The notes under the pieces were generated by a model, which saw only the letters and a program-made list of their open reading frames with translations, searched no databases and was not told the origin of the DNA. Position numbers and translations under genes: made by a program. A stretch of 32,000 nt of DNA from Haloferax volcanii DS2 (GTDB taxonomy: Archaea > Halobacteriota > Halobacteria > Halobacteriales > Haloferacaceae), in assembly GCF_000025685.1 (NCBI RefSeq), contig NC_013966.1:510001-542000 (forward strand), read 5' to 3'. Below are positions 2,685 to 19,022 of this stretch, one piece after another. Positions within the stretch are counted from its first letter, which is position 1. Each line of letters begins with the position of its first letter.

Positions 2685-3323
2685 TCACTCAAGCAGCGCC
2701 CCGAACACCGACTGTTGCGCCCGGCGGAGCCGTTCGAGGAACGCCGACTTGCTGATTCCGAGTTCGTCCGCCACGTCCCGAGCCGTGATGCTCCGGGGGA
2801 GGTCGAAGTACCCCATCTCGACGGCCGCCCGGAGGGCGGCTTCCTGCGCGGGCGTGAGGTCCCACGCTCGACCGATGGGCGATTCCTCGTCCGCCCGAAG
2901 CGGGTAGACGCGCTGGAGTTGGATACCGACGGTGCCGCCGGCCGTCTCCATCACGCCGCGGAGTACGTCGTAGCCGACGACCGCCCCGCGCATCGTCGCG
3001 CCGCCGTCGTCGTACCGCATCGACTCGACGAGGAAGCCGGCGTCGACGAGCTCGTGGACGACGCAGGAGTGTTTCGAGAGACAACGGAAGGTGTACGTGT
3101 CGTCGCCGCGGGTGACGTGGAGGTAGCGGATGGCGTCGTCGTCGTCGAGGGCCTCGGGGAGCCGGTCGTCCGCTGGAGCCGAAAAATGGAGCAGGACGTT
3201 GCCGTCGGCGCGGAGTTGCGGCGCGTTCGCGTCGACCGCGACGGGGACCGCGTCGGTCGCCCGCGCCAGCGGGCAGTCGTCGCCGTCGATGCGAAACTCG
3301 GCCACCAAGCACTCCGCTATCAT
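2685..3323 (-). CDS. HTH-10 (bacterio-opsin-activator-like) family transcription regulator, divergent from paaA
   Basis: ORF 2685..3494 trimmed to ATG 3323 (MIAECLVAEF...). The C-terminal HTH_10 signature is LTPAQEAALRAAVEMGYFDLPRSITARDVADELGISKSAFLERLRRAQ. A strong TATA (TTTTTATATTA, reverse of 3345-3355) lies about 21 nt upstream. Confidence 0.8.
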   Translation of the reverse strand: MIAECLVAEFRIDGDDCPLARATDAVPVAVDANAPQLRADGNVLLHFSAPADDRLPEALDDDDAIRYLHVTRGDDTYTFRCLSKHSCVVHELVDAGFLVESMRYDDGGATMRGAVVGYDVLRGVMETAGGTVGIQLQRVYPLRADEESPIGRAWDLTPAQEAALRAAVEMGYFDLPRSITARDVADELGISKSAFLERLRRAQQSVFGALLE

Positions 3324-3344
3324 CTGCGTGTGGGTACGCGACAG

Positions 3345-3355
3345 TAATATAAAAA
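3345..3355 (-). promoter_or_regulatory. TATA box of the HTH-10 regulator gene; may also serve paaA on the other strand
   Basis: TAATATAAAAA on the plus strand reads TTTTTATATTA on the minus strand. It ends about 21 nt upstream of ATG 3323. It is the only strong A/T block in the 90-bp divergent spacer. Confidence 0.5.
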
Positions 3356-3414
3356 GGCAGGTCATGGACGGGTCAATTCGTAAGTAGTCATAGATGATAG
3401 TTCCTGATAGACCA

Positions 3415-4359
3415 ATGGACCTCGAAACCGTCAAAGAACGGGCGGGCCCGCGGCAGTTCGCTCCGAAGGACGACATGCCAGAGGAGTACCGCAAGGCCGC
3501 GACGCGGATGATTCAGTTCCACGCGAACAGCGAGGTGATGGGCGGGTACCTCGAAAAGCCGTTCATCCGGCAAGCGCCGAGCATCGACCGAAAGCTGGCG
3601 TTCTCGGCGAAGGTGCAGGACGAAATCGGCCACGCGCAACTGCTCTACCGCGCCGCCGAGTCCCTCGGCATCAAGACGCGCGACGAGATGCTGGACGAAC
3701 TCGCCCGCGGCGACGGCAAGTTCCTCAACTGCTTCCACTACCCGATGGAGTCGTGGCACGAGGTGCCGATGATAGCGTTCTTCGTCGACGGCGCGGCCAT
3801 GCACCGGCAGGCGACGCTCAAGAACACGTCGTGGACGCCGTACGCCCACGCGATGGACAAAGTGTGCTTCGAGGAGGGCTTCCACGTCAAACACGGCGAA
3901 TCCATCCTCTCCGAGTTGATGAACGGGTCGAAGGCGACCCAAGAGAAGACGCAGGCCGCCTTCGAGACGTGGTGGCCGCGCATCATCCAGTTCTTCGGCC
4001 CGACCAACGACAAGTCCGTCCACAACGACTTCGCGCAGGAGGTCGGCCTGAAGACGAAGTCCAACGACGAACTTCGCGACACCTTCCTCGACACCTACGT
4101 CCCGAAAGCGGAGAAGTACGGCCTCGTCGTCCCCGAGTACCCGCGCATCGAGTACGACGAGGAACTCGACACCTACCACGTCAACGAGGACGACCTGAAC
4201 TGGGACGAGTTCTGGACCATCGCCAAGAACGCCTCGGACGGGAGTCACGAGCAGATTAACTCCCGCGCAAAGGCGCAGGCGGCGGTCGAGTGGGTGCGCG
4301 AATCGATGCACAGTTGGGAGGGCGCGTCGGGGGCCGAAACCCCGCAGGCGGCGGACTGA
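3415..4359 (+). CDS. paaA: 1,2-phenylacetyl-CoA epoxidase catalytic subunit PaaA
   Basis: Ferritin-like di-iron ExxH motifs (QDEIGHAQ, EEGFHVKH) and the conserved MIQFHANSEVMGGY stretch. First gene of a tightly packed paaABCD set. The start could be ATG 3415 (MDLETVK) or ATG 3394. The 3394 ATG lies inside a recurring GATGATAG promoter motif. Confidence 0.9.
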   Translation: MDLETVKERAGPRQFAPKDDMPEEYRKAATRMIQFHANSEVMGGYLEKPFIRQAPSIDRKLAFSAKVQDEIGHAQLLYRAAESLGIKTRDEMLDELARGDGKFLNCFHYPMESWHEVPMIAFFVDGAAMHRQATLKNTSWTPYAHAMDKVCFEEGFHVKHGESILSELMNGSKATQEKTQAAFETWWPRIIQFFGPTNDKSVHNDFAQEVGLKTKSNDELRDTFLDTYVPKAEKYGLVVPEYPRIEYDEELDTYHVNEDDLNWDEFWTIAKNASDGSHEQINSRAKAQAAVEWVRESMHSWEGASGAETPQAAD

Positions 4360-4364
4360 GAACC

Positions 4365-4685
4365 ATGATTTGGGAAGTGTTCAGACAGGACAAACCGGGA
4401 GCGTACCACAAACACTGCGGCAACGTCCACGCGCCGGACCGCGAGTTGGCGCTCCAGTTCGCGGCCGTCCAGCACGGCCGACGGATGAAGACCCACAGCC
4501 TGTGGGTCGTTCCGCACGACGAAATCGGTGAAATCGACGCCGACGAGACGAGCTTCGGCGGGACGACCGACAAGACCTACCGCTGGGCCACCTCGTACAC
4601 GGACATCGAACCGGCCGCGCCGGAAGTCGCCGAAAGCGAGGCCGAGCAGGCCGACGTGGAGAAATCGCTCGAGGCGGACAGCTAA
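4365..4685 (+). CDS. paaB: 1,2-phenylacetyl-CoA epoxidase subunit PaaB
   Basis: ORF 4290..4685 trimmed to ATG 4365 (MIWEVFRQ...), 5 nt after the paaA stop. The small size and WEVF...H.HCG.VHAPD...AL pattern are typical of PaaB. Confidence 0.88.
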   Translation: MIWEVFRQDKPGAYHKHCGNVHAPDRELALQFAAVQHGRRMKTHSLWVVPHDEIGEIDADETSFGGTTDKTYRWATSYTDIEPAAPEVAESEAEQADVEKSLEADS

Positions 4686-4687
4686 CC

Positions 4688-5506
4688 ATGCCCGACGCCC
4701 TCAATCCCGAAGACCTCGACGCCGAACAGCGCGCCGCGCTCGAAGAGTTGCTGTTCCGCCTCGCGGACGACGAGTACGTCCACGGCGAGCGCCTCATCGA
4801 GTGGCAGATTTACGCGCCGACGCTGGAGTCCGACCTCGCGTTGGCGAACGTCGCACAGGACGAATTCGGCCACGCCCGCCTGTGGTACGACCTGCTCGAA
4901 GAACTCGGCCACACCGAGGCGGAACTCATCTGGGAGCGCCCCGCCGACGAGTTCAGACACGCCACGCTGGTCGAACTCCCGTTCGCGGAGGGCGACTGGG
5001 CCGACGTGGTCCTTCGGAGCTACCTCTACGACGCCGCCGAGCGCCTGCGCCTCGACGCGCTCGTCGACACCAGCTACGCGCCGCTCTCCGACCGCGTCGG
5101 CAAGGTGCTGAGCGAGGAGCGCTACCACCTCGAAAACGCCCAGAGCTGGCTCGACCGCCTCGCCGAGGGCGACAGCCGCGACCGCGTACAGGACGCGCTC
5201 GACCGGCTGTTCCCCCACGCACTCTCGCTTTTCGTCGAGCCCGAATACGAGGACGCAATCGTCGACAACGGCTTCCGGACGATGTCCACCGCCGACCTCC
5301 GCATCGAGTGGCTGGAGACGGTCATTCCGTACCTCGAATCGCTCGGGCTCGACGTGCCCGAACCCGACGAGGTCGAGCGCCCGAGCGCCCGCGGCCGCGA
5401 CGGCACCCACACCGACCACTGGGACGAACTGGCCGCGGAGTTCCGGCGGACGTACGACGAGCTCGAAGCGCCCGAGCCGGCGAGAATCGGCGGGGAGCGT
5501 GTCTGA
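4688..5506 (+). CDS. paaC: 1,2-phenylacetyl-CoA epoxidase structural subunit PaaC
   Basis: 272-aa ferritin-like protein with QDEFGHARLW and SEERYHLEN motifs. It starts 2 nt after the paaB stop. Confidence 0.88.
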   Translation: MPDALNPEDLDAEQRAALEELLFRLADDEYVHGERLIEWQIYAPTLESDLALANVAQDEFGHARLWYDLLEELGHTEAELIWERPADEFRHATLVELPFAEGDWADVVLRSYLYDAAERLRLDALVDTSYAPLSDRVGKVLSEERYHLENAQSWLDRLAEGDSRDRVQDALDRLFPHALSLFVEPEYEDAIVDNGFRTMSTADLRIEWLETVIPYLESLGLDVPEPDEVERPSARGRDGTHTDHWDELAAEFRRTYDELEAPEPARIGGERV

Positions 5507-5942
5507 CGTGAGCGCCGACGACGCGCGCGAGGCGACGGCCTGCGGCTACACGGAGTACGTCGACGGCGAGGTCCCGGAGGGCTTCCCGAAGACGGGCGTC
5601 GGAGCCACGGGCGTCGAAGCCGACATCTGGGACGCCCTCTACGAAATCGAGGACCCCGAGATGCCGGTGAGCATCGTCGACCTCGGCCTCATCTACGACG
5701 TTCGGGTCGTCGAGCGAGAGGGCGAAGACGGCGAGACGAAGACGCTCGGTATCGTCGAGATGACGCTGACGTACACCGGCTGTCCGGCGCGCGACTATCT
5801 CGAAAACGACGTGCAGTGCGCGATTCTGGCGGCCGGCGTCGACGAGGCGTCCGTACGGCTCCGGTTCACGCCGGAGTGGACCGTCGACATGGTGACCGAG
5901 GCGGGCCGCGAGGCCCTCCGCGAGTTCGGGCTGGGGGTGTGA
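5499..5942 (+). CDS. paaD: PaaD N-terminal module (DUF59/MIP18-type domain), ending at an in-frame TGA
   Basis: GTG start overlaps the paaC stop by 8 nt. It carries the DUF59 signature IEDPEMPVSIVDLGLIYDV...TLTYTGCPA. It ends with ...REALREFGLGV, exactly where bacterial PaaD continues into its Zn-ribbon. Confidence 0.8.
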   Translation: MSDVSADDAREATACGYTEYVDGEVPEGFPKTGVGATGVEADIWDALYEIEDPEMPVSIVDLGLIYDVRVVEREGEDGETKTLGIVEMTLTYTGCPARDYLENDVQCAILAAGVDEASVRLRFTPEWTVDMVTEAGREALREFGLGV

Positions 5943-5945
5943 GCG

Positions 5946-6113
5946 ATGCGCCGCTTCGACCCAAGCACCGAGACGACGGGCGAGACATCGGGCGCGGAGT
6001 GCCCGTACTGCGGTGGCACGAACACCGTCCGCGAGCACCCGAAAGGGCCGGGACTGTGCCGGTCGATGCACTTCTGTAACGACTGTCAAGAGCCGTTCCA
6101 GCGGTTCGAATAA
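5946..6113 (+). CDS. PaaD C-terminal Zn-ribbon module as a separate 55-aa ORF (not in the supplied ORF track)
   Basis: My translation: MRRFDPSTETTGETSGAECPYCGGTNTVREHPKGPGLCRSMHFCNDCQEPFQRFE. The pattern CPxCG...C(K/R)x(L/M)xxCxxCxEPFxxF matches the C-terminus of bacterial PaaD. Third-codon G/C is about 84 percent. It is in the same frame as 5499..5942, separated only by TGA-GCG. Confidence 0.65.
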   Translation: MRRFDPSTETTGETSGAECPYCGGTNTVREHPKGPGLCRSMHFCNDCQEPFQRFE

Positions 6114-6141
6114 CGTCGGCGGAGCGACCGGAGAAGAGCGG

Positions 6142-6148
6142 TTTTTTT
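6142..6148 (+). terminator. Oligo-T (T7) candidate archaeal terminator of the paaABCD unit
   Basis: A run of 7 T lies 29 nt after the Zn-ribbon ORF stop, in otherwise very GC-rich sequence. Archaeal termination commonly uses T-tracts. Confidence 0.4.
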
Positions 6149-6275: not shown

Positions 6276-7727
6276 TCAGCCGAGGTTGAGGTTCACGTTC
6301 TTCGCCTGCGTGAACTCGCGGACGGCCTCCGCTCCCTGCTCGCGGCCGTGACCGCTCTGTTTCGTGCCGCCGAAGGGCGTCTGCGGGAACGTGACCGGGT
6401 ACTCGTTGACGCTGACCATCCCGTAGTCGAGCGCGTCGGCGACGCCGTGAGCGCGAGAGAGCCCCTCGGTCCAGACGCCGGCGAGAAGCCCGTACGGGGA
6501 GTCGTTGGCGAGTTCGATCGCCTCCGTTCGGTCCGAGAACTCGGTGACGACGAGGACCGGGCCGAATATCTCCTCGCGGGCCACGGTCATGTCGTTCGTC
6601 ACGTCGGCGAGAACCGTCGGCTCCACGAAGTAGCCGGTGTCCTTGTCCTCGGGGACGCCCCCGCCGCAGGCGACGGTCGCGCCCTCCTCGACGCCGAGGG
6701 AGATGTACTCCAACACGTCCCCGCGGTGGGACTCGCTGACGACCGGCCCCATCCGGCCGTCGTCGTCGATGCCGGAGCCGAGCGGGGTCGACTCGGCGCG
6801 CGCGACGACGCGCTCGACGAGGTCGTCGGCCACCTCCTCGTGGACGAGCAGGCGCGACCCGGCCCAGCACATCTGGCCGGCGTTCATGAAGATGCCGTAG
6901 TGGACGCCCTTGGCGGCGGCGTCGAGGTCGGCGTCGGGGAAGACGACGTTGGGGCCCTTCCCGCCGAGTTCGAGCGTGACGCCGGTCACGTTGGCCGCGG
7001 CGTCGGCCATGACGCCTTTACCGACTTCGGTGCTGCCGGTGAAGGTGACGTGCGCCACGTCGGGGTGCGAGGCGAGCGCCGACCCCGCCTCGGACCCGCT
7101 TCCGGGAACCACGTTCACCACGCCGTCGGGGAGGCCGGCTTCCTCGGCCGCGAGGCCGTAGTAGAGCGCCGAAAGTGGCGTCTGGCTGGAGGGCTTTACC
7201 ACCGCCGTGTTGCCGCAGGCGAGCGCCGGCGCGAGACTGCGCCCCGCGAGTTGGAACGGGTAGTTCCACGGGACGATGTGTCCGGTGACGCCGAGCGGTT
7301 CGCGGGTCGTGTAGTTGACGCGCCGGCCGGGGACGGGGTTGTACTCGCCGGTCACCTTGTCGGTCCATCCGGCGTAGTAGCGGAAGGTGTCGACGACCAT
7401 CTGGACCTCCATACCGGCCTCGAACGGCGTCTTGCCGTTATCGTGGGACTCGACGAGCGCTATCTCGTCTTTCCGCGCCTCGATGAAGTCGGCCATCGCG
7501 CGCAGTTTCTCTCCGCGCTCGGCCGCGCTCGTGGTCTCCCACTCGCCGCCGCGAGCGCCCGCCGAGTTCGCCGCCCGCACCGCGGCGTCGACGTCCGCCT
7601 CGCCCGCGCGGGCGACCTCGGCGTACGGCGCTTCGGTCGCCGGGTCGCGCGTCTCGATGGTCTCGTCCGATGCCGCGGCTACCCAGTCCCCGTCGATGTA
7701 GAGACCGGTCGGGCCACTGTATTCCAT
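6276..7727 (-). CDS. NAD(P)-dependent aldehyde dehydrogenase (candidate PaaZ-ALDH equivalent or phenylacetaldehyde dehydrogenase)
   Basis: 483-aa ALDH with general-base motif LELGGKGP and catalytic Cys in FMNAGQMCWAGSRL. It has its own TATA (TTAATATTAT, minus strand, about 22 nt upstream of the ATG). Confidence 0.9.
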   Translation of the reverse strand: MEYSGPTGLYIDGDWVAAASDETIETRDPATEAPYAEVARAGEADVDAAVRAANSAGARGGEWETTSAAERGEKLRAMADFIEARKDEIALVESHDNGKTPFEAGMEVQMVVDTFRYYAGWTDKVTGEYNPVPGRRVNYTTREPLGVTGHIVPWNYPFQLAGRSLAPALACGNTAVVKPSSQTPLSALYYGLAAEEAGLPDGVVNVVPGSGSEAGSALASHPDVAHVTFTGSTEVGKGVMADAAANVTGVTLELGGKGPNVVFPDADLDAAAKGVHYGIFMNAGQMCWAGSRLLVHEEVADDLVERVVARAESTPLGSGIDDDGRMGPVVSESHRGDVLEYISLGVEEGATVACGGGVPEDKDTGYFVEPTVLADVTNDMTVAREEIFGPVLVVTEFSDRTEAIELANDSPYGLLAGVWTEGLSRAHGVADALDYGMVSVNEYPVTFPQTPFGGTKQSGHGREQGAEAVREFTQAKNVNLNLG

Positions 7728-8258: not shown

Positions 8259-8876
8259 TCAGTCGGCCATCGAGACGCCGAGGTACCGGTCGAGCACCTC
8301 GTCGGCGGCCGCGCCGTCGTCGTTCAGTTCCTCGATTTTTCGCTGGACCTGCTTGACGACGGCGGGCGCGAGCCCTTCGGTCGGCTCGTCGAGCAACAGG
8401 AGGTCCGGCGCGGAGACGAGCGCGCGGGCGATGGCGAGCATCTGCTGTTCGCCGCCCGAGAGGTTCGCACCCCGGCTGTTCCGGTGGCGCGCGAGGTTCT
8501 CGAACTCGTCGACGATGGCGTCGACGGTCGGTTTTTCGGCGTCTCGACGACCGCCGATGCGGCCGATTTCGACGTTCTCGGAGACGGTCAGGCCGGGGAA
8601 GACGCGGCGCTCCTCGGGGACGAGTGCGATGCCCTCGCGGGCGGTCTTCTCCGGCGACAGCGTCGTGATGTCCGCCCCGTCGAAGGTGATAGTCCCCTCG
8701 GACGGCGGGACGTTCCCGAGGATGCTCCGGAGCGTCGTCGTCTTGCCGACGCCGTTGCGCCCGATGAGCGTGACGACCGACCCGCGAGGCACGTCGAAGT
8801 CGATGCCTTGCAGGACGCGGGTCGACCCGTAGCCCGAGACGAGTCCGCGGACGGACAAGAGCGGGTCGTCGCTCAC
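8259..8876 (-). CDS. livF: LivF-type ABC ATPase, abnormally short (in-frame loss of the switch region)
   Basis: GTG start with GTGA overlap onto livG. Walker A (GRNGVGKTT), signature (LSGGEQQ) and Walker B (LLLLDEPTEGL) are present. The sequence jumps from ...KIEELNDDG directly to AAADEVLDRYLGVSMAD. The protein is 205 aa; typical LivF is about 235-240 aa. Confidence 0.8.
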   Translation of the reverse strand: MSDDPLLSVRGLVSGYGSTRVLQGIDFDVPRGSVVTLIGRNGVGKTTTLRSILGNVPPSEGTITFDGADITTLSPEKTAREGIALVPEERRVFPGLTVSENVEIGRIGGRRDAEKPTVDAIVDEFENLARHRNSRGANLSGGEQQMLAIARALVSAPDLLLLDEPTEGLAPAVVKQVQRKIEELNDDGAAADEVLDRYLGVSMAD

Positions 8877-9637
8877 GTCTCGACACCCCCGAAGTAGGCC
8901 TCGCGGACCTCCGGGTCCTCCGAGACGGCCGCGGGCGTCCCCTCGGCCAGGACCTCGCCGCGGTGGAGGACCGTGATGCGGTCGGACACCCGCATCACGA
9001 GGTCGATATCGTGTTCGATGAGCAGGAGCGTCCGGTCCGACAGCACCTCGTCGATGAGGTCCATCGTGGCCCGCGTCTCCTCGGCGCTCATGCCGGCGGT
9101 CGGCTCGTCCAGAAGCACCATGTCGGGGTCGGTGGCGAGCACGATGGCGATTTCGAGCCGGCGCTTGTCGCCGTAGGCGAGCACGTCCGCGGGTTCGTCG
9201 CCGCGGCCCAAGAGGCCGGAGCGGTCGAGCACGCGGTCGGTGTGTTCGTTCACGTCGTCGAAGGCGTCGCTTCGCCGGAGGTACGCTTCGACCGGCGTGA
9301 AGCCGCCTTCGCGGGCCGCCTGCGCGGCGAGGCGGACGTTCTCGCGGACCGTGAGCCCCGAGAAGACGTTCGTGATTTGGAACGACCGGCCGAGGCCGCG
9401 GCGCACGCGCTCGTGCGGCGGGAGCGCGGTCACGTTCTCGCCGTTGAACGTCACGGTGCCGCGGGTCGGCCGGAGCGCGCCGGTCAGGAGGTTGAACGTG
9501 GTCGTCTTGCCGGCCCCGTTCGGGCCGATGAGGCTCCGGAACTCGCCGCGTTCCACGTCGAGGGTCACGTCGTCGACGGCGACGAGCTTTCCGAACTCCT
9601 TCGTCAGGTTCTCGGTCCGCAGTATCGGGTCACTCAC
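8873..9637 (-). CDS. livG: LivG-type ABC ATPase
   Basis: 254 aa with Walker A GPNGAGKTT, LivG-type signature YGDKRRLEIA, Walker B MVLLDEPTAGM and H-loop LLLIEHD. The GTG start overlaps the permease stop by 8 nt. Confidence 0.9.
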   Translation of the reverse strand: MSDPILRTENLTKEFGKLVAVDDVTLDVERGEFRSLIGPNGAGKTTTFNLLTGALRPTRGTVTFNGENVTALPPHERVRRGLGRSFQITNVFSGLTVRENVRLAAQAAREGGFTPVEAYLRRSDAFDDVNEHTDRVLDRSGLLGRGDEPADVLAYGDKRRLEIAIVLATDPDMVLLDEPTAGMSAEETRATMDLIDEVLSDRTLLLIEHDIDLVMRVSDRITVLHRGEVLAEGTPAAVSEDPEVREAYFGGVET

Positions 9638-11576
9638 GGCGGTCTACCTCCGGGTCGGTGACGCCGGCCTGTTCGCCGACGCGGTCGCGGAACCGGCCGC
9701 CGACGGCCGATTCGAAAAGCGGGTGGTCCGCCACCGTCCGCGAGAGCGACACGAGCCCCCGCGGCACGAAGATGACGAACAGGACGAACAGCACGCCGGT
9801 GACGAGCTGCCACTGGTCGATGTACGACGAGAGCACGTCCTCCGCGGCGACGAAGACGCCCGCGCCGAGCATCGGCCCGTAGAGCGTTCCCATGCCGCCG
9901 AGGACGGTCATCACGATGACCTCGCCCGAGTTTATCCAGTGGAGGAACGACGGCGCGACGTAGCCGTTGTCGGCGGCGAACAGCCCGCCGGCGACCCCCG
10001 CGAGGCCGCCGGAGACGACGAAGGCGCGGCGCTTGTAGGCGGTTACGTCGTAGCCGATGAACGAGGCGCGCTCTTCGCTCTCGCGGATGGACTGCAACAC
10101 CGAGCCGAACGGCGCGCGGATGAGGCGGCGGGCCAGCAGGTACGACCCTACCACGACGGCGAGGAGGAAGTAGTACTGGACGACGCCGCCGTCGTGGACG
10201 AACGGACCCAGCGGGACCGCGAACTCGCCGGGGTCGACGCCGAGGCCGGCGAGACCGTAGAACGCGTCGACGCCGAACAGGCCGTCGGGGCCGCCGGTGA
10301 AGTCGAACTTGAACACGGCGTTGTAGAACAGCTCCGCGAACCCGAGAGTTATCATGGCGAAGAACACCCCGGACACGCGTATCGAGAGGTAGCCGACGCC
10401 CCACGCGATGGCCGCGCAGACGGCGACGGCGACGGCGAGCGCGACGAACACCGACGGCGAGAGGTGCATGAGCGTGAGAACCGAGGCGTACGCGCCGACC
10501 CCGTAAAACAGCGTGTGACCGAGCGAGACGAGGCCCGCGTAGCCGAGCACGAGGTCGAGGCTGAGCGCGAACAGCGCCCAGATGAGGATGTCTTCGAGGA
10601 GCGTCACGGAGTAGGTGACGCCGGTCACCTCCGCGAGAAGCGGGACGACGAGGAGCGCGCCGACGCCGGCGTAGCCGAGTTTCGCGCGGGTCTCCGCGGA
10701 CAGCACGCCGCCGCCGGAGCCGTGGAGGAGCGCGCCGTCGTGGTGGTCGCCCGCGCCGACGCTCGTGCCGAACAGCCCCGTCGGCTTGACGACGAGCACG
10801 GAAATCATGAGCAGGAAGACGATGAGTCCCTCCAGGAACGGCGCGTACGTCCGGGCGAACGTCTGGACGAGACCGACGAACAGACCGCCGACCACGGCCC
10901 CGCGGAACGACCCGAGGCCGCCGAGAACGACGATGACGAACGCCGGGATGATGACCGAACTTCCCATCGTCGGGCTGACGTTCTGGTACGCGCCGAGGAC
11001 GATGCCGGCGACGCCGGCGAGCGCCGCGCCGAACCCGAACGTCAGGGTGTAGTAGCGGTCGATGTCGATGCCGAGGGTGCGGACCATCTCGCGGTCCTCG
11101 GAGCCGGCGCGGATTATCATCCCGAAGCGGGTGCGGTTCAACAGGAGCCACGTGCCGAGCGCCAGCGCCGACCCGAAGACGATGATGCCGTAGTTGTACA
11201 GCGAGTAGTTGAACCCGAACAGCGCGACCGGCTGGTCGAGAATCGGGGGAATCGGAAACGGCTGGGCGGACTTGCCCCACGCCGACGTGATGAGGTCGTT
11301 GACGATGAGGACGAGTCCGAACGTCAGGAGGATGTGGTACAGCGGGTCGCGGCCGTACAGCCGCTTGACGGTGAGCCGCTCGATGCCCATCCCGACGACG
11401 CCGACGAGGAGGGGCGCGACGACGAGCGCGACCCAGAAGCCCGCGCCGCCGAGGGGGCCGGCGATGGCGAACGCGAAGTACGCGCCGAGGGCGAACTGTT
11501 CGCCGTGGGCGAAGTTGATGACGTCCATGACGCCGAAGATAATGGAGAGCCCGGCAGCGAGCAGGACGTACACCAT
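9630..11576 (-). CDS. Fused LivH-LivM branched-chain-amino-acid-type ABC permease
   Basis: 648-aa polytopic protein. The N-terminal half has the LivH signature VINFAHGE. A Gly/His-rich linker (about aa 275-300) precedes a LivM-like half (LGYAGLVSLGH). The N-terminus appears short relative to LivH homologues. Confidence 0.85.
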   Translation of the reverse strand: MVYVLLAAGLSIIFGVMDVINFAHGEQFALGAYFAFAIAGPLGGAGFWVALVVAPLLVGVVGMGIERLTVKRLYGRDPLYHILLTFGLVLIVNDLITSAWGKSAQPFPIPPILDQPVALFGFNYSLYNYGIIVFGSALALGTWLLLNRTRFGMIIRAGSEDREMVRTLGIDIDRYYTLTFGFGAALAGVAGIVLGAYQNVSPTMGSSVIIPAFVIVVLGGLGSFRGAVVGGLFVGLVQTFARTYAPFLEGLIVFLLMISVLVVKPTGLFGTSVGAGDHHDGALLHGSGGGVLSAETRAKLGYAGVGALLVVPLLAEVTGVTYSVTLLEDILIWALFALSLDLVLGYAGLVSLGHTLFYGVGAYASVLTLMHLSPSVFVALAVAVAVCAAIAWGVGYLSIRVSGVFFAMITLGFAELFYNAVFKFDFTGGPDGLFGVDAFYGLAGLGVDPGEFAVPLGPFVHDGGVVQYYFLLAVVVGSYLLARRLIRAPFGSVLQSIRESEERASFIGYDVTAYKRRAFVVSGGLAGVAGGLFAADNGYVAPSFLHWINSGEVIVMTVLGGMGTLYGPMLGAGVFVAAEDVLSSYIDQWQLVTGVLFVLFVIFVPRGLVSLSRTVADHPLFESAVGGRFRDRVGEQAGVTDPEVDRRE

Positions 11577-12945: not shown

Positions 12946-13416
12946 TTACTCCGCGGCCGACTTCGTCTTGATGAGGAACTTCATGTCGCCTTCGAGGACG
13001 ACCGTGCCGTCCTGCTTCGTCATCTCGATTTCGAGGACGACCAAGCCGGCGTCGTCGCGGCTCCCGAGGTCCTTCCGCTCCGAGACGACCATCGTCTGCG
13101 AGAGCGTGTCACCGATGAACACCGGGTTCGGCAGGTCCATGTAGTTCATCCCGAGGAAGGCGATGGCGGTGCGCTCGACGATGCCCGACCGGTACACGAA
13201 GCCGGTCGACTGGACGAACGTCATCGGCCCGTGGGCGATTCGCTGGCCGAACTGGGTGTCTTCCGCGTACTCGCTGTTCGTGTGGAGTTCGGTCCAGTCG
13301 CCCGACAGCGCGGAGTGCATCATGAAGTCCGCCTCGGTGACGGTGCGACCGACGCTCTGGAACTCCTTGCCCTCCTCGAAGTCCTCGAAGTAGTGCGGTT
13401 CGTAGCTGTATGCCAT
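12946..13416 (-). CDS. MaoC-like (R)-specific enoyl-CoA hydratase, hotdog fold (candidate PaaZ-hydratase equivalent)
   Basis: 156 aa with a MaoC dehydratase pattern (...FGQRIAHGPMTF...). TATA-like TTTATC lies about 21 nt upstream on the minus strand. Confidence 0.82.
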   Translation of the reverse strand: MAYSYEPHYFEDFEEGKEFQSVGRTVTEADFMMHSALSGDWTELHTNSEYAEDTQFGQRIAHGPMTFVQSTGFVYRSGIVERTAIAFLGMNYMDLPNPVFIGDTLSQTMVVSERKDLGSRDDAGLVVLEIEMTKQDGTVVLEGDMKFLIKTKSAAE

Positions 13417-15322: not shown

Positions 15323-16486
15323 ATGCGAGACGCATACATCGTCGGAGCGGGCCAATCGAAGTACGGCGCGTTTCCGGACGAGAGCTATCGGTCGCTGTTC
15401 GCGACCGCGTTCGAGGAGGCACTGGGGAGCGCCGGCGGTGTCGAGGCGGCCGATATCGACGAGGCCGTCGTCGGGTCGCTCGGCGTCGGCGGTCGGCAAC
15501 TCGGCTTATCGGGACCGGCCGTGACGGAGCACGTCGGCCTCCACGGCGTCCCCTGTTCCCGAATCGAAAACGCCTGCGCAGCGAGCGGCTACGCGGTCAG
15601 ACAGGCGGTGCAGGCGGTCAAAAGCGGGATGGCGGACGTGGCCCTCGCGGGGGGCTACGAGGTCATGACCGACACGAGCGGCGACGTGGCGAAGTACTGG
15701 CTCGGCGTCAGCGGCGAGACGGAGTGGGAGCGTCTCACCGGGACGACGTTCGCGGGCGTCTACGCCCAGATTGCCTCGGCGTATCTCGACGCCTACGACG
15801 CCTCGCCGGACCACTTCTCGAAGGTCGCGGTGAAGAACCACGCGAACGGCGCGAAGAACCCGAAGGCGCACCTCGGCTTCGAGTGCTCGCTCGACGACGC
15901 GCGGAGCGCGCCCGTCGTGGCCGACCCGCTGAATCTCTATCACTGCTGTCCGACCTCCGACGGCGCGGCCGCGGTTCTCGTCGCCAGCGAGGGCGTTGCC
16001 AACGCGTGCGACGACGCGGTCCGCGTCGCGGGCGTGGGTGCCGCCTCCGAGCGCGTCGGCCTCTTCCAGCGCGACAGCTACACCGCCGTCGAATCGTCCG
16101 AGCGGGCCGCCGCGGCCGCCTACGAGATGGCCGGTCTCGGCCCCGACGACGTGGACTTCGCGGAGGTCCACGACTGCTTCGCCATCGCCGAGTTGCTGGC
16201 GTACGAGGACCTCGGCTTCTGCGAGCGCGGACACGCGCCCGAACTGGTCGACTCGGGAGCGACCGAACTCGGCGGCGACCTGCCCGTCAACCCCTCCGGC
16301 GGCCTGAAATCGAAGGGCCACCCCATCGGCGCGACGGGCGCGGGGCAGGTCGTCGAGGCGTTCAAACAACTCACCGGGCGGGCCGGTGATCGGCAAGTCG
16401 CGGGCGCGAGCGTCGGCCTCACCCACAACGTCGGCGGGTCGGGCGGGGCCGCCGTCGTCCACGTCCTCGAAGGGGGTGCGCTATGA
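15323..16486 (+). CDS. SCP-x/archaeal-type thiolase (candidate 3-oxoadipyl-CoA / 3-oxo-5,6-dehydrosuberyl-CoA thiolase, PaaJ role)
   Basis: 387 aa with nucleophile Cys in IENACAASG, the VHDCF motif and GGLKSKGHPIGATG. Its stop overlaps the next start (ATGA at 16483-16486). Confidence 0.88.
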   Translation: MRDAYIVGAGQSKYGAFPDESYRSLFATAFEEALGSAGGVEAADIDEAVVGSLGVGGRQLGLSGPAVTEHVGLHGVPCSRIENACAASGYAVRQAVQAVKSGMADVALAGGYEVMTDTSGDVAKYWLGVSGETEWERLTGTTFAGVYAQIASAYLDAYDASPDHFSKVAVKNHANGAKNPKAHLGFECSLDDARSAPVVADPLNLYHCCPTSDGAAAVLVASEGVANACDDAVRVAGVGAASERVGLFQRDSYTAVESSERAAAAAYEMAGLGPDDVDFAEVHDCFAIAELLAYEDLGFCERGHAPELVDSGATELGGDLPVNPSGGLKSKGHPIGATGAGQVVEAFKQLTGRAGDRQVAGASVGLTHNVGGSGGAAVVHVLEGGAL

Positions 16487-18051
16487 GCGCCGACGACCCG
16501 GCCCGAGCGACCCTCGGAATCGCCGGGGTCGGCGCGTACGTTCCTCGGCTGTACCTCCCCGCGTCGGCCTACCGCGAGGCGTGGGGCAAGGGCGGCGCGC
16601 CGGGCGTCGACCGGGTCGCCGTCGCCGACGCCGACGAAGACACCCTGACGATGGCGACCGAGGCGGGCCGGCGCGCACTCCGCGCGGCCGGGGTTGACGC
16701 CGGCGACATCGACCACCTCGCCCTTGCGACCACGACGCCGCCGAACGACGAGGAGGAAATCGCGGTTCGGCTGGCCTCGCTCCTCGGCGTCGACCCGTCG
16801 GTTCCGACCCGGCAGTTCGGCGGGAGTACCCGCGCCGGCGCGGTGGCGCTGGCGGCGACGGTCGAGGCGACACAGAACGTGGGTGACGGCGCGAGCAGTC
16901 CGAGGCTCGTCGTCGTCACCGACAGCCCGCGAGGAGCGCCCGAAAGCGACGAGGCGGCCGGTGCCGGGGCGGGGGCGACCGCGCTCGTCCTCGCCGAAGA
17001 CGGACCGCTCGTCGTCGACGCCGTGGGCGAGTTCGGTGACCCCGCACCCGGTGCGCGGTTCCGAGGGTTCGGGAGCGCCGAGACGGAGTCCATCGGCGTC
17101 ACGCAGTACGAACGCGACGCCTACACGCGGGCGGTCGTCGGGGCGGTCGAGGCCCTCGGCATCGACACGGCCGAACTGGATCCCGACGCCGTGGCCCTCA
17201 CCGCGCCGGACGGGAAACTCCCGTACCGCGCGGCCAACGCGCTCGACGTCGAACCGGCGCGAATCGCGGCCGGGACCGTCGTCTCGCGAACCGGTGACGC
17301 CGGGGCCGCCGGGCCGGTTCTCGGACTCGCGTCGGCGCTCGACTCCGCGGGCGACGCGGGAGCCGACGAGTCGGACGGCCGGTCCCCCGCGACCTCGGTA
17401 CTCCTCGTCGGCTACGGCGGCGGCGCGGGGGCGACCGCGCTCGCGCTCAGCACAGAGGCGACAGACACCAACGCCGCCGCCAGTTCCGTCGTCCCGGTCG
17501 AGGCGGTCCTCGACGGCGACGTGGAACTCTCGTACGCGGAGGCGCTCCGGCGGCGCGGGACCATCACCGGCGGGGAGCCGGCTGGCGGCGGTGCGTACGT
17601 CAGCGTGCCGACGTGGAAGCGGACGATTCCGCAGCGACACCGCCTCGTCGCCGGCGAGTGCACCGAGTGCGGGGCGCTCTCGTTCCCGCCGGAAGGGGCG
17701 TGTGCCGACTGCGGGTCGCTCGCGGGCTACGACGACGTGACGCTGCCCGGAACGGGAACCGTCGAGGCCGCGACCGCCATCGGACAGGGGGGCGCGCCGC
17801 CGGAGTTCGTCGAGCAACAGCAGCGGGCCGGGTCGTTCCCGGTCGCCGTCGTCGCCTTCGACGGGCCGGGCGGCGAGGGCGGCGAGACCGACGAGCGAAC
17901 CGTGAGCGCGCCCGCACAGGTCGTCCACTCGCCCGCCGGAACGCCCGCAATCGGCGACCGCGTCGAGGCCGTCCCGCGCCGCATCTACGAGCAGGAGGGC
18001 GTCGTCAGGTACGGCTTCAAGGTCGTCCCGACCGAGGCGCGGCGGGAGTAA
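16483..18051 (+). CDS. Fusion protein: HMG-CoA-synthase-like (condensing-enzyme fold) domain lacking catalytic Cys/Glu, plus a DUF35 Zn-ribbon/OB-fold domain
   Basis: The N-terminus (GIAGVGAYVPRLYLPASAYREAWGK...DEDTLTMATEAGRRAL) resembles archaeal HMGCS. The only four Cys in 522 aa are C393/C396/C407/C410 (C-x2-C-x10-C-x2-C, nt 17659-17712). This ribbon is followed by an OB-like C-terminus, which is the DUF35 layout. Confidence 0.8.
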   Translation: MSADDPARATLGIAGVGAYVPRLYLPASAYREAWGKGGAPGVDRVAVADADEDTLTMATEAGRRALRAAGVDAGDIDHLALATTTPPNDEEEIAVRLASLLGVDPSVPTRQFGGSTRAGAVALAATVEATQNVGDGASSPRLVVVTDSPRGAPESDEAAGAGAGATALVLAEDGPLVVDAVGEFGDPAPGARFRGFGSAETESIGVTQYERDAYTRAVVGAVEALGIDTAELDPDAVALTAPDGKLPYRAANALDVEPARIAAGTVVSRTGDAGAAGPVLGLASALDSAGDAGADESDGRSPATSVLLVGYGGGAGATALALSTEATDTNAAASSVVPVEAVLDGDVELSYAEALRRRGTITGGEPAGGGAYVSVPTWKRTIPQRHRLVAGECTECGALSFPPEGACADCGSLAGYDDVTLPGTGTVEAATAIGQGGAPPEFVEQQQRAGSFPVAVVAFDGPGGEGGETDERTVSAPAQVVHSPAGTPAIGDRVEAVPRRIYEQEGVVRYGFKVVPTEARRE

Positions 18052-18110
18052 TCGGTCGGGGGCGCGGGAGCAGAACCGGGTCATCGACACCGAAGCGAGG
18101 GCAAACGATT

Positions 18111-19022
18111 ATGATGGTTCCCGAACCCCTTTCGGTGATGCAAGTGAGTGTACTCGGCGCGGGAACCATGGGTCACGGCATCGCGCAGGTGGCCGCGATG
18201 GCCGGTCACGAGGTGACGATGCGTGACATCGAAGCGGCGTACGTCGACGATGGACTGGACGCCATCGAGTCGAACCTCCGGGGCGGCGTCGACCGCGACA
18301 AGGTGACGCCCGACGAGATGGCGGCGACGCTCGATCGACTCTCGGGGACGACCTCGCTGGAGGCGGCCGTCACCGACGCCGACCTCGTCGTCGAGGCGGT
18401 TCCCGAGGATATGGAACTCAAGCGCGAGACGGTCGCGGAGGTCGAATCCCTCGTCGACGACGACGCCGTCATCGCGTCGAACACGTCGTCGCTCTCCGTG
18501 ACCCAGATACTGAGCGCCCTCGAACGTCCGGAGCGCGGCCTCGGACTCCACTTCTTCAACCCGGTCCACATCATGGGGCTCGTCGAGGTCGTCGTCGCGG
18601 AACAGACGAGCGAATCGACGCTGGCGTTCGCCACCGAGTTCGTCGAGGGCATCGACAAGACCGCCGTCGAGGTCGGTGACTCGCCCGGCTTCGCCTCCTC
18701 GCGGCTCGGCGTCGCCCTCGGCGTCGAGGCCATGCGCATGGTGCAGGAGGGCGTCGCGTCGCCCGCGGACGTCGACACCGCGATGGAGCTCGGGTACAAC
18801 CACCCGATGGGGCCACTCGAACTCGGAGACGCGGTCGGCCTCGACGTTCGCCTCGACATCCTCGAATACCTACGCGAGGAACTGGGCGAGCGCTTCCGCC
18901 CGCCGCAGATTCTCAAGCGAAAGGTCCGCGCCGGCAAGCTCGGCAAGAAGACCGGTGAGGGCTTCTACGTCTGGGAGGACGGCGAAATCGTCGGCGCGCC
19001 CGAGGACGTGATGGACCGATGA
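18111..19022 (+). CDS. 3-hydroxyacyl-CoA dehydrogenase (PaaH-like)
   Basis: ATG 18111 (or ATG 18138, MQVSVLGAGTMG) within ORF 17613..19022. It has the Rossmann motif VLGAGTMGHGIA, NTSSLS, HFFNP and C-terminal dimerisation domain motifs. Confidence 0.9.
   Translation: MMVPEPLSVMQVSVLGAGTMGHGIAQVAAMAGHEVTMRDIEAAYVDDGLDAIESNLRGGVDRDKVTPDEMAATLDRLSGTTSLEAAVTDADLVVEAVPEDMELKRETVAEVESLVDDDAVIASNTSSLSVTQILSALERPERGLGLHFFNPVHIMGLVEVVVAEQTSESTLAFATEFVEGIDKTAVEVGDSPGFASSRLGVALGVEAMRMVQEGVASPADVDTAMELGYNHPMGPLELGDAVGLDVRLDILEYLREELGERFRPPQILKRKVRAGKLGKKTGEGFYVWEDGEIVGAPEDVMDR

What the first reader, a model, noticed from the sequence alone, without database searches (positions are those of the whole stretch)
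5499..6113. PaaD is interrupted by a single in-frame TGA; the Zn-ribbon half is an unlisted 55-aa ORF
Seen in sequence: the DUF59-type ORF ends ...REALREFGLGV-TGA (5940-5942). GCG-ATG follows in the same reading frame, then a 55-aa ORF (5946-6113). Its CPYCG...CRSMHFCNDCQEPFQRFE pattern matches the C-terminal Zn-ribbon of bacterial PaaD (CPxCGS...CKALYRCxxCxEPFDYFK). Similarity to fused PaaD therefore runs collinearly across the stop codon. Both halves keep strong third-position G/C bias. Three explanations are possible: a lineage-conserved split into two translationally coupled cistrons, a recent nonsense mutation, or low-level stop read-through giving a full-length protein. The short ORF is below the ORF-track cutoff and is easy to miss in annotation.
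Basis: partly seen in the sequence, partly recalled or inferred. Interest (0 to 1): 0.65.

Follow-up and report, generated by a model that had tools for sequence, protein, structure and literature searches.

The report
Haloarchaeal PaaD split into two genes
The stop codon inside "PaaD" is not damage: haloarchaea normally encode this accessory protein of the phenylacetate-degrading oxygenase as two adjacent, tightly packed genes, and public databases already annotate both, so the finding is real but ordinary.

Summary
A 147-aa DUF59 ORF (5499-5942) ends in TGA. After GCG, an in-frame ATG (5946) opens a 55-aa ORF (5946-6113) that matches Pfam Zn_ribbon_PaaD (E = 8e-21).

- **Split is conserved.** All 80 haloarchaeal species loci fetched have a stop at the same codon, right after FGL[S/G][V/I]. 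The ribbon ORF follows immediately in every one.
- **Read-through is not conserved.** The ribbon ORF is in frame with the DUF59 ORF in only 7 of 81 loci. The ATGA overlap is the commonest form (41/81).
- **Not a recent nonsense mutation.** The ribbon ORF is under strong purifying selection within Haloferax (dN/dS 0.04-0.09).
- **Layout fits coupling.** In the window the gap is 3 nt, with an SD-like GGGGGTG 6 nt before the ATG. This suits termination-reinitiation coupling.

It is already known. NCBIfam has the equivalog models paad_haloarch and paae_haloarch. RefSeq annotates both genes in a 99.5% identical Haloferax lucentense plasmid. The exact 55-aa protein is a called gene in many assemblies.

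One point is worth flagging. The public name "PaaE" for the ribbon is misleading, because the ribbon is homologous to the C-terminus of bacterial PaaD and not to the PaaE reductase.

The parts
3415..4359 (+). paaA, catalytic subunit of 1,2-phenylacetyl-CoA epoxidase and first gene of the operon. The mechanical ORF starts at 3394; the RefSeq start in the 99.5% identical plasmid maps to 3415.
   Evidence: PF05138 at E = 2.5e-72. TIGR02156 at 287.9 bits against a cutoff of 280. RefSeq coordinates.
4365..4685 (+). paaB, starting 5 nt after the paaA stop.
   Evidence: NF041867 paab_haloarch at 179.9 bits against a cutoff of 150. RefSeq coordinates.
4688..5506 (+). paaC, starting 2 nt after the paaB stop. 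Its TGA at 5504-5506 overlaps the start of the next gene by 8 nt.
   Evidence: PF05138 at E = 1.4e-62. TIGR02158 at 172.1 bits against a cutoff of 133.
5499..5942 (+). paaD, haloarchaeal form: a 147-aa protein with the DUF59/MIP18 domain only. It corresponds to the N-terminal two thirds of bacterial PaaD and ends FGLGV-TGA.
   Evidence: PF01883 at E = 5.5e-12. NF041868 paad_haloarch at 183.8 bits against a cutoff of 180. The 120 best homologues are all 130-173 aa with PF01883 only. The C-terminus FGL[S/G]V is invariant in position.
5933..5939 (+). Shine-Dalgarno-like GGGGGTG inside the last codons of paaD, 6 nt upstream of ATG 5946.
   Evidence: Read and scored. It is a 7-nt match to GGAGGTG allowing one G:U pair. 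L001-L006 share the motif: 6 nt before the ATG in L001-L004, 4 nt in L005 and 10 nt in L006. It is inferred to help reinitiation; this was not tested.
5940..5945 (+). Junction: TGA stop of paaD (5940-5942) plus GCG. The intergenic distance is +3 nt and the two ORFs are in the same frame.
   Evidence: The junction is identical in L001-L004 (Haloferax sp. Q22, H. massiliensis, H. gibbonsii, H. prahovense). Frame and spacing differ elsewhere.
5946..6113 (+). 55-aa PaaD-type zinc-ribbon protein, named 'paaE' in RefSeq. It corresponds to the C-terminal third of bacterial PaaD and has five conserved Cys (CPYC...C...CxxC).
   Evidence: PF23451 at E = 8.3e-21. NF041869 paae_haloarch at 112 bits against a cutoff of 100. 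Homologues are all 46-61 aa stand-alone proteins. dN/dS is 0.035-0.085 within Haloferax. It is a called gene in public assemblies.
6126..6148 (+). Weak hairpin followed by a T7 run (6142-6148), 13-35 nt after the ribbon ORF. Probable end of the paaABCD-ribbon transcript.
   Evidence: Terminator-like site and sequence. Function is inferred, resting on my own knowledge that haloarchaeal terminators are oligo-T runs.

Best explanation
Throughout the class Halobacteria, the protein that bacteria make as one chain (PaaD: DUF59 domain, linker, C-terminal zinc ribbon) is encoded as two adjacent genes. The break lies exactly at the start of the interdomain linker.

In this window they are the last two cistrons of a tightly packed paaA-paaB-paaC-paaD-ribbon operon. 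The gaps between successive genes are +5, +2, -8 and +3 nt.

The ribosome that terminates at the paaD TGA most likely reinitiates 3 nt downstream at ATG 5946 (termination-reinitiation). An SD-like GGGGGTG 6 nt upstream probably helps. This would make the 147-aa and 55-aa products in matched amounts, and they would then associate non-covalently to do what fused PaaD does. That role is an accessory or maturation role for the PaaABC di-iron oxygenase, not catalysis.

**Shown here:** the split, its conservation, the variable frame, purifying selection on both halves, the spacing and the public annotation.

**Inferred:** the coupling mechanism, the physical association of the two products and their function.

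The in-frame relation of the two ORFs in this window is a coincidence of one Haloferax clade.

The confidence of 0.9 applies to the conserved two-gene split. The coupling mechanism and the association of the two products are less certain, at roughly 0.6-0.7.
For: - **Domains and collinearity.** The two ORFs carry the two domains of fused PaaD in the right order.
- **Curated haloarchaeal models.** Both halves pass NCBIfam equivalog cutoffs: NF041868 at 183.8 against 180, and NF041869 at 112 against 100.
- **Homologue lengths.** The 120 best homologues of the first half are 130-173 aa and carry PF01883 only. All homologues of the second half are 46-61 aa. In the 1.84-billion-protein representative library, every hit above 70 bits is 52-58 aa.
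- **Junctions.** All 80 species loci plus the window have a stop directly after FGL[S/G][V/I/L], except L075, which is 4 codons longer. The ribbon ORF lies immediately downstream in every one.
- **Junction classes.** ATGA overlap in 41 loci and TGATG in 6. The distance is +6 nt or less in 75 of 81. The relative frame is 2 in 68 loci, 0 in 7 and 1 in 6.
- **Selection.** dN/dS of the ribbon ORF is 0.035-0.085 within Haloferax, similar to the DUF59 half at 0.03-0.14.
- **Public annotation.** RefSeq annotates paaD (147 aa) and the 55-aa gene separately in Haloferax lucentense pSVX82-2, 99.5% identical to the window. It does the same in H. alexandrinus, H. gibbonsii and H. mediterranei plasmids.
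- **Published experiments.** In H. volcanii, reinitiation is efficient for overlaps and very short gaps. It falls by 40-60% at +13/14 nt and to about zero at +22/23 nt. Such closely spaced pairs are enriched for subunits of heteromeric complexes (PMC10666635).
Against: - Nothing here measures translation, so coupling is inferred from spacing alone.
- The SD-like motif is confined to L001-L006 and the window. Six loci have gaps of +7 to +29 nt, where coupling should be weak.
- No evidence was obtained that the two products bind each other.
- No solved structure contains the PaaD ribbon.
- The biochemical role of PaaD itself is unknown.
Confidence: 0.9

Rival explanations
1. Low-level read-through of the in-frame TGA, by a near-cognate tRNA, yields a full-length bacterial-type PaaD in this Haloferax clade. 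That fused protein is the functional, or an additional functional, form.
For: In the window and in L001-L004 the two ORFs are in frame, separated only by TGA-GCG. The artificial fusion passes the bacterial PaaD model TIGR02159 at 112.6 bits against a cutoff of 108.15.
Against: - In-frame arrangement occurs in only 7 of 81 loci, below the one third expected by chance. Other Haloferax species sit in frame +1 (L005, L006) or frame 2 (L007, L008), so it is not selected.
- The ribbon ORF always keeps its own start codon, ATG in 76 of 81 loci, close to the stop.
- No recoding signal was looked for or seen.
- From my own knowledge, haloarchaea are not known to decode UGA as selenocysteine.
Confidence: 0.04
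2. A recent nonsense mutation or a sequencing error has truncated a once-fused PaaD. The downstream ORF is a decaying remnant.
For: Only the superficial appearance: a single stop inside a region collinear with fused PaaD.
Against: - The stop is at the same codon in all 81 loci across many genera.
- The identical junction is present in independent assemblies.
- The remnant would not show dN/dS of 0.035-0.085 with dS up to about 1.
- It would not keep an invariant CPYC...REHPKGP.LCRS...C..C..PF core.
Confidence: 0.01
3. The 55-aa ribbon is an independent subunit with a role of its own, as its public name 'PaaE' implies. One possibility is a rubredoxin-like metal centre that passes electrons to PaaA, replacing the FNR-type PaaE reductase that is missing from the cluster.
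For: - No ORF with FAD_binding_6, NAD_binding_1 or Fer2 domains was found among the roughly 34 ORFs scanned in the 32-kb window.
- The ribbon has a CxxC...CxxC arrangement plus a fifth conserved Cys.
- NCBIfam names it PaaE.
Against: - The ribbon is homologous to the C-terminus of bacterial PaaD: PF23451, and TIGR02159 positions 102-143. Bacterial PaaD coexists with a true PaaE reductase and has no effect on the in vitro reaction.
- Pfam classifies it as a zinc ribbon.
- No paper supporting an electron-transfer role was found.
Confidence: 0.05

Closest known systems
Haloarchaeal PaaD / 'PaaE' gene pair (NCBIfam NF041868 paad_haloarch and NF041869 paae_haloarch; RefSeq WP_004040861.1 and WP_004040862.1)
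   Same: Both window ORFs pass the curated equivalog cutoffs. A 99.5% identical Haloferax lucentense plasmid carries the same two annotated genes with the same coordinates relative to paaC. This is the same thing.
   Different: Nothing of substance. The window's 55-aa protein differs by two residues from the Haloferax MULTISPECIES cluster representative.
Bacterial fused PaaD (TIGR02159 PA_CoA_Oxy4; DUF59 plus Zn_ribbon_PaaD in one chain of about 160-180 aa)
   Same: Same two domains in the same order and the same operon position after paaC. Identity is 36-41% across both halves.
   Different: - It is one polypeptide in bacteria and two here, broken right after the FG(L/V/Y) motif at the start of the linker.
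- The haloarchaeal DUF59 half also carries a conserved N-terminal extension of about 35 residues (ACxYTxY...PKTG) that is absent from the fused proteins.
Bacterial PaaE (FNR-type reductase of the epoxidase: FAD_binding_6, NAD_binding_1 and a 2Fe-2S ferredoxin domain)
   Same: Only the name that RefSeq and NCBIfam give to the 55-aa protein.
   Different: There is no domain in common. The 55-aa ORF hits only zinc-ribbon families. The domain content of true PaaE is as stated in PMC13186573.
Translationally coupled overlapping or closely spaced gene pairs in Haloferax volcanii (termination-reinitiation; Huber et al. 2019 and 2023)
   Same: Spacing is within the -8 to +6 nt class that allows efficient reinitiation. 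The ATGA and TGATG forms dominate among orthologous loci. The products plausibly form a heteromeric complex.
   Different: Coupling of this particular pair has not been measured.

Membership tests
Haloarchaeal PaaD (NF041868) | Whole-protein score at or above the curated equivalog cutoff (180 bits) | tested here: met
   183.8 bits, covering profile positions 1-127 of 127.
Haloarchaeal PaaD (NF041868) | DUF59-only protein ending at FGL[S/G]V, encoded directly after paaC | tested here: met
Haloarchaeal 'PaaE' zinc-ribbon protein (NF041869) | Whole-protein score at or above the curated equivalog cutoff (100 bits) | tested here: met
   112 bits, covering profile positions 1-56 of 56.
Haloarchaeal 'PaaE' zinc-ribbon protein (NF041869) | Stand-alone ORF of about 55 aa immediately downstream of the DUF59 gene, with the Cys pattern conserved | tested here: met
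   All 81 loci have it, at 53-69 aa. C19, C22, C38, C44 and C47 are invariant.
Bacterial fused PaaD (TIGR02159) | DUF59 domain and PaaD zinc ribbon on one polypeptide that scores above 108.15 bits | tested here: not met
   The halves score 73.8 and 34.7 bits. Only an artificial fusion reaches 112.6. A stop separates them.
Bacterial fused PaaD (TIGR02159) | Encoded in the paaABC(D) oxygenase operon | tested here: met
   paaA, paaB and paaC lie directly upstream.
Bacterial PaaE reductase | FAD/NAD(P)-binding FNR-like domains plus a 2Fe-2S ferredoxin domain | tested here: not met
   The 55-aa ORF has no such hits; it hits only zinc-ribbon families.
Programmed stop-codon read-through or recoding | Downstream ORF kept in frame with the upstream ORF across relatives | tested here: not met
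   In frame in 7 of 81 loci; frame 2 in 68 and frame 1 in 6.
Programmed stop-codon read-through or recoding | Read-through product detectable | not testable with these tools
   This needs proteomics or ribosome profiling.
Pseudogene from a nonsense mutation | Sense codon at this position in relatives, and relaxed selection downstream | tested here: not met
   A stop is present in 81 of 81 loci. dN/dS is 0.035-0.085 within Haloferax.
Termination-reinitiation coupled gene pair | Overlap or intergenic distance within about -8 to +6 nt | tested here: met
   +3 nt in the window. The distance is +6 nt or less in 75 of 81 loci. The criterion is from PMC10666635.
Termination-reinitiation coupled gene pair | Downstream translation depends on upstream translation reaching the stop | not testable with these tools
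   This needs reporter constructs with premature stops.

The most novel reading that the evidence does not exclude
The separated 55-aa ribbon has acquired, or reveals, a function of its own. It could be a rubredoxin-like metal centre that links a haloarchaeal ferredoxin or reductase to the PaaABC di-iron oxygenase. That would compensate for the FNR-type PaaE reductase absent from the cluster, and would hint at what the enigmatic PaaD ribbon does in bacteria too.
Probability: 0.05. Interest if true: 0.5.

Novelty: already known. Interest (0 to 1): 0.1.

Why it matters
It matters little for discovery. The split is the standard haloarchaeal arrangement and is already captured by NCBIfam, Pfam and RefSeq. 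Three practical points remain.

1. The stop at 5940-5942 should not be flagged as a pseudogene, frameshift or recoding site.
2. The RefSeq/NCBIfam label "PaaE" for the 55-aa protein invites confusion with the bacterial PaaE reductase. The protein is really the detached C-terminal ribbon of PaaD. Pathway reconstructions that count "PaaE present" in haloarchaea on the strength of this name would be wrong about the electron donor.
3. The pair is a clean natural example of a domain fission held together by translational coupling. Across relatives it shows a range of junction types: ATGA, TGATG, and +1 to +29 nt.

Tried and rejected
- **Origin of the 'PaaE' name.** Literature searches for a paper describing the haloarchaeal split or explaining the name found nothing. 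The 2026 survey of the PAA pathway treats PaaD only as a PF01883 protein and does not mention the ribbon or a split.
- **Solved structures.** A PDB sequence search with the artificial fusion found only DUF59 structures (5ird, 2cu6, 3lno, 1uwd). None covers the ribbon, so no structural argument could be made.
- **Representative-library search.** The search with the ribbon profile gave 480 hits, but the library has no taxonomy. Many short hits outside the haloarchaeal type are probably fragments of fused proteins on contigs of about 1 kb. I therefore make no claim about stand-alone ribbons in bacteria.
- **Structure prediction.** I did not predict a structure of the fusion.
- **Selenocysteine.** This reading of the TGA was considered and dropped, because the frame is not conserved.
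- **First junction script.** The first junction script used strict regular expressions and missed many loci. A first tblastn-based rewrite stopped on an indexing error. The corrected version found the junction in all 81 loci.

Full report
**1. The observation**

A 147-codon ORF (GTG 5499 to TGA 5940-5942) ends ...REALREFGLGV. It is followed by GCG and then, in the same frame, by ATG 5946, which opens a 55-codon ORF ending in TAA at 6111-6113.

- The 55-aa ORF matches Pfam PF23451 (PaaD zinc beta ribbon) at E = 8.3e-21 over 50 of 53 profile positions.
- The upstream ORF matches PF01883 (DUF59/FeS_assembly_P) at E = 5.5e-12.
- Against the bacterial PaaD equivalog TIGR02159, the first ORF covers profile positions 1-88 and the second covers 102-143. 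Neither half reaches the cutoff of 108.15 bits (73.8 and 34.7), but an artificial fusion does (112.6 bits).
- Fused PaaD-type proteins from the representative library align collinearly across the stop at 36-41% identity. The break falls right after the FG(L/V/Y) motif, where the interdomain linker starts.

Third-position G+C is 0.91 and 0.84 for the two ORFs, like paaA and paaC.

**2. Context**

The two ORFs are the last cistrons of a compact operon.

| Gene | Coordinates |
|---|---|
| paaA | 3415-4359 |
| paaB | 4365-4685 |
| paaC | 4688-5506 |
| DUF59 ORF | 5499-5942 |
| Ribbon ORF | 5946-6113 |

- The gaps between successive genes are +5, +2, -8 and +3 nt.
- A weak hairpin and a T7 run (6126-6148) follow the ribbon ORF.
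- An HTH_10/BAT regulator is divergent upstream, at 2685-3476 on the minus strand.
- The rest of the window carries further phenylacetate-pathway-type genes: an aldehyde dehydrogenase, a PaaI-type thioesterase, an ABC transporter, a MaoC dehydratase, a PaaK-like ligase, a thiolase, a 3-hydroxyacyl-CoA dehydrogenase and enoyl-CoA hydratases.
- The window is 99.5% identical over 1.6 kb to plasmid pSVX82-2 of Haloferax lucentense.

**3. Is the split conserved?**

Yes, completely, as far as I could see.
- The 120 best database homologues of the DUF59 half are all 130-173 aa and carry PF01883 only. They come from Haloferax, Halolamina, Halobaculum, Halogranum, Halobacterium, Haloprofundus, Halorarum and other genera. 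In an alignment of 20 of them, every sequence ends at the same position with FGL[S/G]V.
- The homologues of the ribbon ORF are all stand-alone proteins of 46-61 aa.
- A profile of the ribbon ORFs was searched against 1.84 billion representative proteins. It found only proteins of 52-58 aa above 70 bits. Fused proteins appear only at lower scores and carry a different signature (LENPFGPTLCR rather than REHPKGPxLCR).

I then fetched 80 loci from 80 haloarchaeal species genomes and located the junction in each with tblastn.
- Every locus has a stop directly after the FGL.. motif. One locus, L075, extends 4 codons further.
- Every locus has the ribbon ORF immediately downstream.
- None is fused.

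**4. Which of the three explanations?**

Junction statistics over 81 loci, including the window:

| Feature | Counts |
|---|---|
| Stop codon | TGA 74, TAA 6, TAG 1 |
| Ribbon start codon | ATG 76, GTG 5 |
| ATGA overlap | 41 |
| TGATG overlap | 6 |
| Gap of +1 to +6 nt | 28 |
| Gap of +7 to +29 nt | 6 |
| Ribbon frame relative to DUF59 ORF | frame 2 in 68, frame 0 in 7, frame 1 in 6 |

*Read-through.* The in-frame state is seen only in the window, in four close Haloferax relatives (L001-L004, with identical TGAgcgATG junctions), and independently in L011 and L017. Other Haloferax species are out of frame: TGAgATG in H. marisrubri, TGAtgcggtgATG in H. mucosum, and gtATGATG in L007 and L008. 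In-frame is therefore rarer than the one third expected by chance and is not conserved. This removes read-through as a selected mechanism.

*Nonsense mutation.* The conservation of the stop excludes a recent nonsense mutation, and so does selection. Within Haloferax, the ribbon ORF has dN/dS of 0.035-0.085 at dS of 0.19-1.1. The last 100 codons of the DUF59 ORF give 0.03-0.14.

*Conserved split.* The remaining explanation, two conserved and closely packed cistrons, fits all the data.

**5. How it most likely works**

This section is inference. The dominant ATGA and TGATG junctions, and the +3 nt gap in the window, fall in the -8 to +6 nt class.
- Huber et al. found this class to be the common one in H. 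volcanii.
- For three native H. volcanii gene pairs they showed that reinitiation falls by 40-60% at +13/14 nt and to about zero at +22/23 nt.
- Such pairs are enriched for subunits of heteromeric complexes (PMC10666635).

In the window, GGGGGTG (5933-5939) lies 6 nt before the ATG. It forms the Gly-Val codons that replace the Ser-Val of most other genera. The match is to the Shine-Dalgarno consensus with one G:U pair. L001-L006 share the motif, all of them with a non-overlapping junction. The spacing is 6 nt in L001-L004, 4 nt in L005 and 10 nt in L006.

I therefore propose the following.
- The ribosome finishing the DUF59 protein reinitiates on the ribbon ORF.
- The two products are made in matched amounts and assemble into the non-covalent equivalent of bacterial PaaD.

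What PaaD does is itself unsettled. In E. coli it is dispensable for the in vitro reaction but required in vivo, and a role in maturation of the oxygenase has been suggested (PMC9493321). No solved structure contains the ribbon.

**6. Comparison with what is known, and novelty**

This is not new.
- NCBIfam holds curated equivalog models for exactly these two proteins: NF041868 paad_haloarch and NF041869 paae_haloarch. Both window ORFs pass the cutoffs.
- RefSeq annotates both genes in plasmids of H. lucentense, H. alexandrinus, H. gibbonsii and H. mediterranei. The proteins are WP_004040861.1 (147 aa) and WP_004040862.1 (55 aa).
- The exact 55-aa protein is a called gene in 228 blocks of the assembly collection.
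- UniRef calls relatives 'PaaD zinc beta ribbon domain-containing protein'.

The one thing I would flag is the name. RefSeq and NCBIfam call the ribbon 'PaaE'. [quoted passage not shown] It is instead the detached C-terminus of PaaD. None of the roughly 34 ORFs I scanned in the 32-kb window has FNR-type domains. The electron donor of the haloarchaeal epoxidase is therefore not identified by this cluster.

**7. Verdict**

- The domain assignment is confirmed.
- Of the three proposed explanations, the conserved split is right and the other two are rejected.
- The feature is the ordinary, already annotated haloarchaeal arrangement, so interest is low.
- The only speculative reading left open is that the free ribbon has a role of its own, such as a redox-active metal site substituting for the missing reductase. 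I rate this at about 5%.

Noticed in passing
window 5946-6113 (+); L085 4259-4426: [quoted passage not shown] It is homologous to the C-terminal ribbon of bacterial PaaD and has no FNR or ferredoxin domain. The name is probably a positional label (fifth gene of the operon) and could mislead pathway reconstruction.
   Followed up: partly
window 1-32000: No FNR-type PaaE reductase (FAD_binding_6, NAD_binding_1 or Fer2 domains) was found among about 34 high-GC3 ORFs scanned in the window. The cluster therefore does not reveal the electron donor of the haloarchaeal PaaABC oxygenase.
   Followed up: partly
window 6276-7727 (-) and 12946-13416 (-): A second apparent domain fission in the same pathway. 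An aldehyde dehydrogenase (482 aa) and a MaoC-like dehydratase (155 aa) are separate genes about 5 kb apart. From my own knowledge, bacterial PaaZ is a fusion of these two domain types.
   Followed up: no
window 5499-5620 (+), residues 13-40 of the DUF59 protein: Haloarchaeal PaaD carries a conserved N-terminal extension (A-C-x-Y-T-x-Y-x-x-G ... P-K-T-G-x-x-x-x-G) with an invariant Cys. It is absent from the fused bacterial-type proteins aligned, and its function is unknown.
   Followed up: no
P0133 (Natronobeatus ordinarius) and P0138 (Natribaculum luteum); More divergent stand-alone PaaD-like zinc-ribbon proteins of 52-63 aa, with the signature VENxRGPxxCRT, exist in other haloarchaea. They are annotated 'hypothetical protein'. 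Their genomic context was not examined.
   Followed up: no
window 16483-18051 (+), next to the thiolase at 15323-16486 (+): A 522-aa mechanical ORF has only a zf-ChsH2 rubredoxin-like zinc-ribbon hit, at residues 382-412. It overlaps the 3-hydroxyacyl-CoA dehydrogenase ORF (17613-19022). The real gene is probably a short DUF35-like thiolase partner with a later start.
   Followed up: no
window 8259-11576 (-): A branched-chain-amino-acid-type ABC transporter is embedded in the paa cluster between the PaaI thioesterase and a luciferase-like monooxygenase. It comprises two ATPase genes and one 648-aa permease ORF with two BPD_transp_2 stretches.
   Followed up: no
L001-L008 junctions: Within the single genus Haloferax the paaD/ribbon junction takes four forms: TGAgcgATG, TGAgATG, TGAtgcggtgATG and gtATGATG. 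The Ser-to-Gly change that creates the SD-like GGGGGTG occurs in L001-L006, all of which have a non-overlapping junction.
   Followed up: partly
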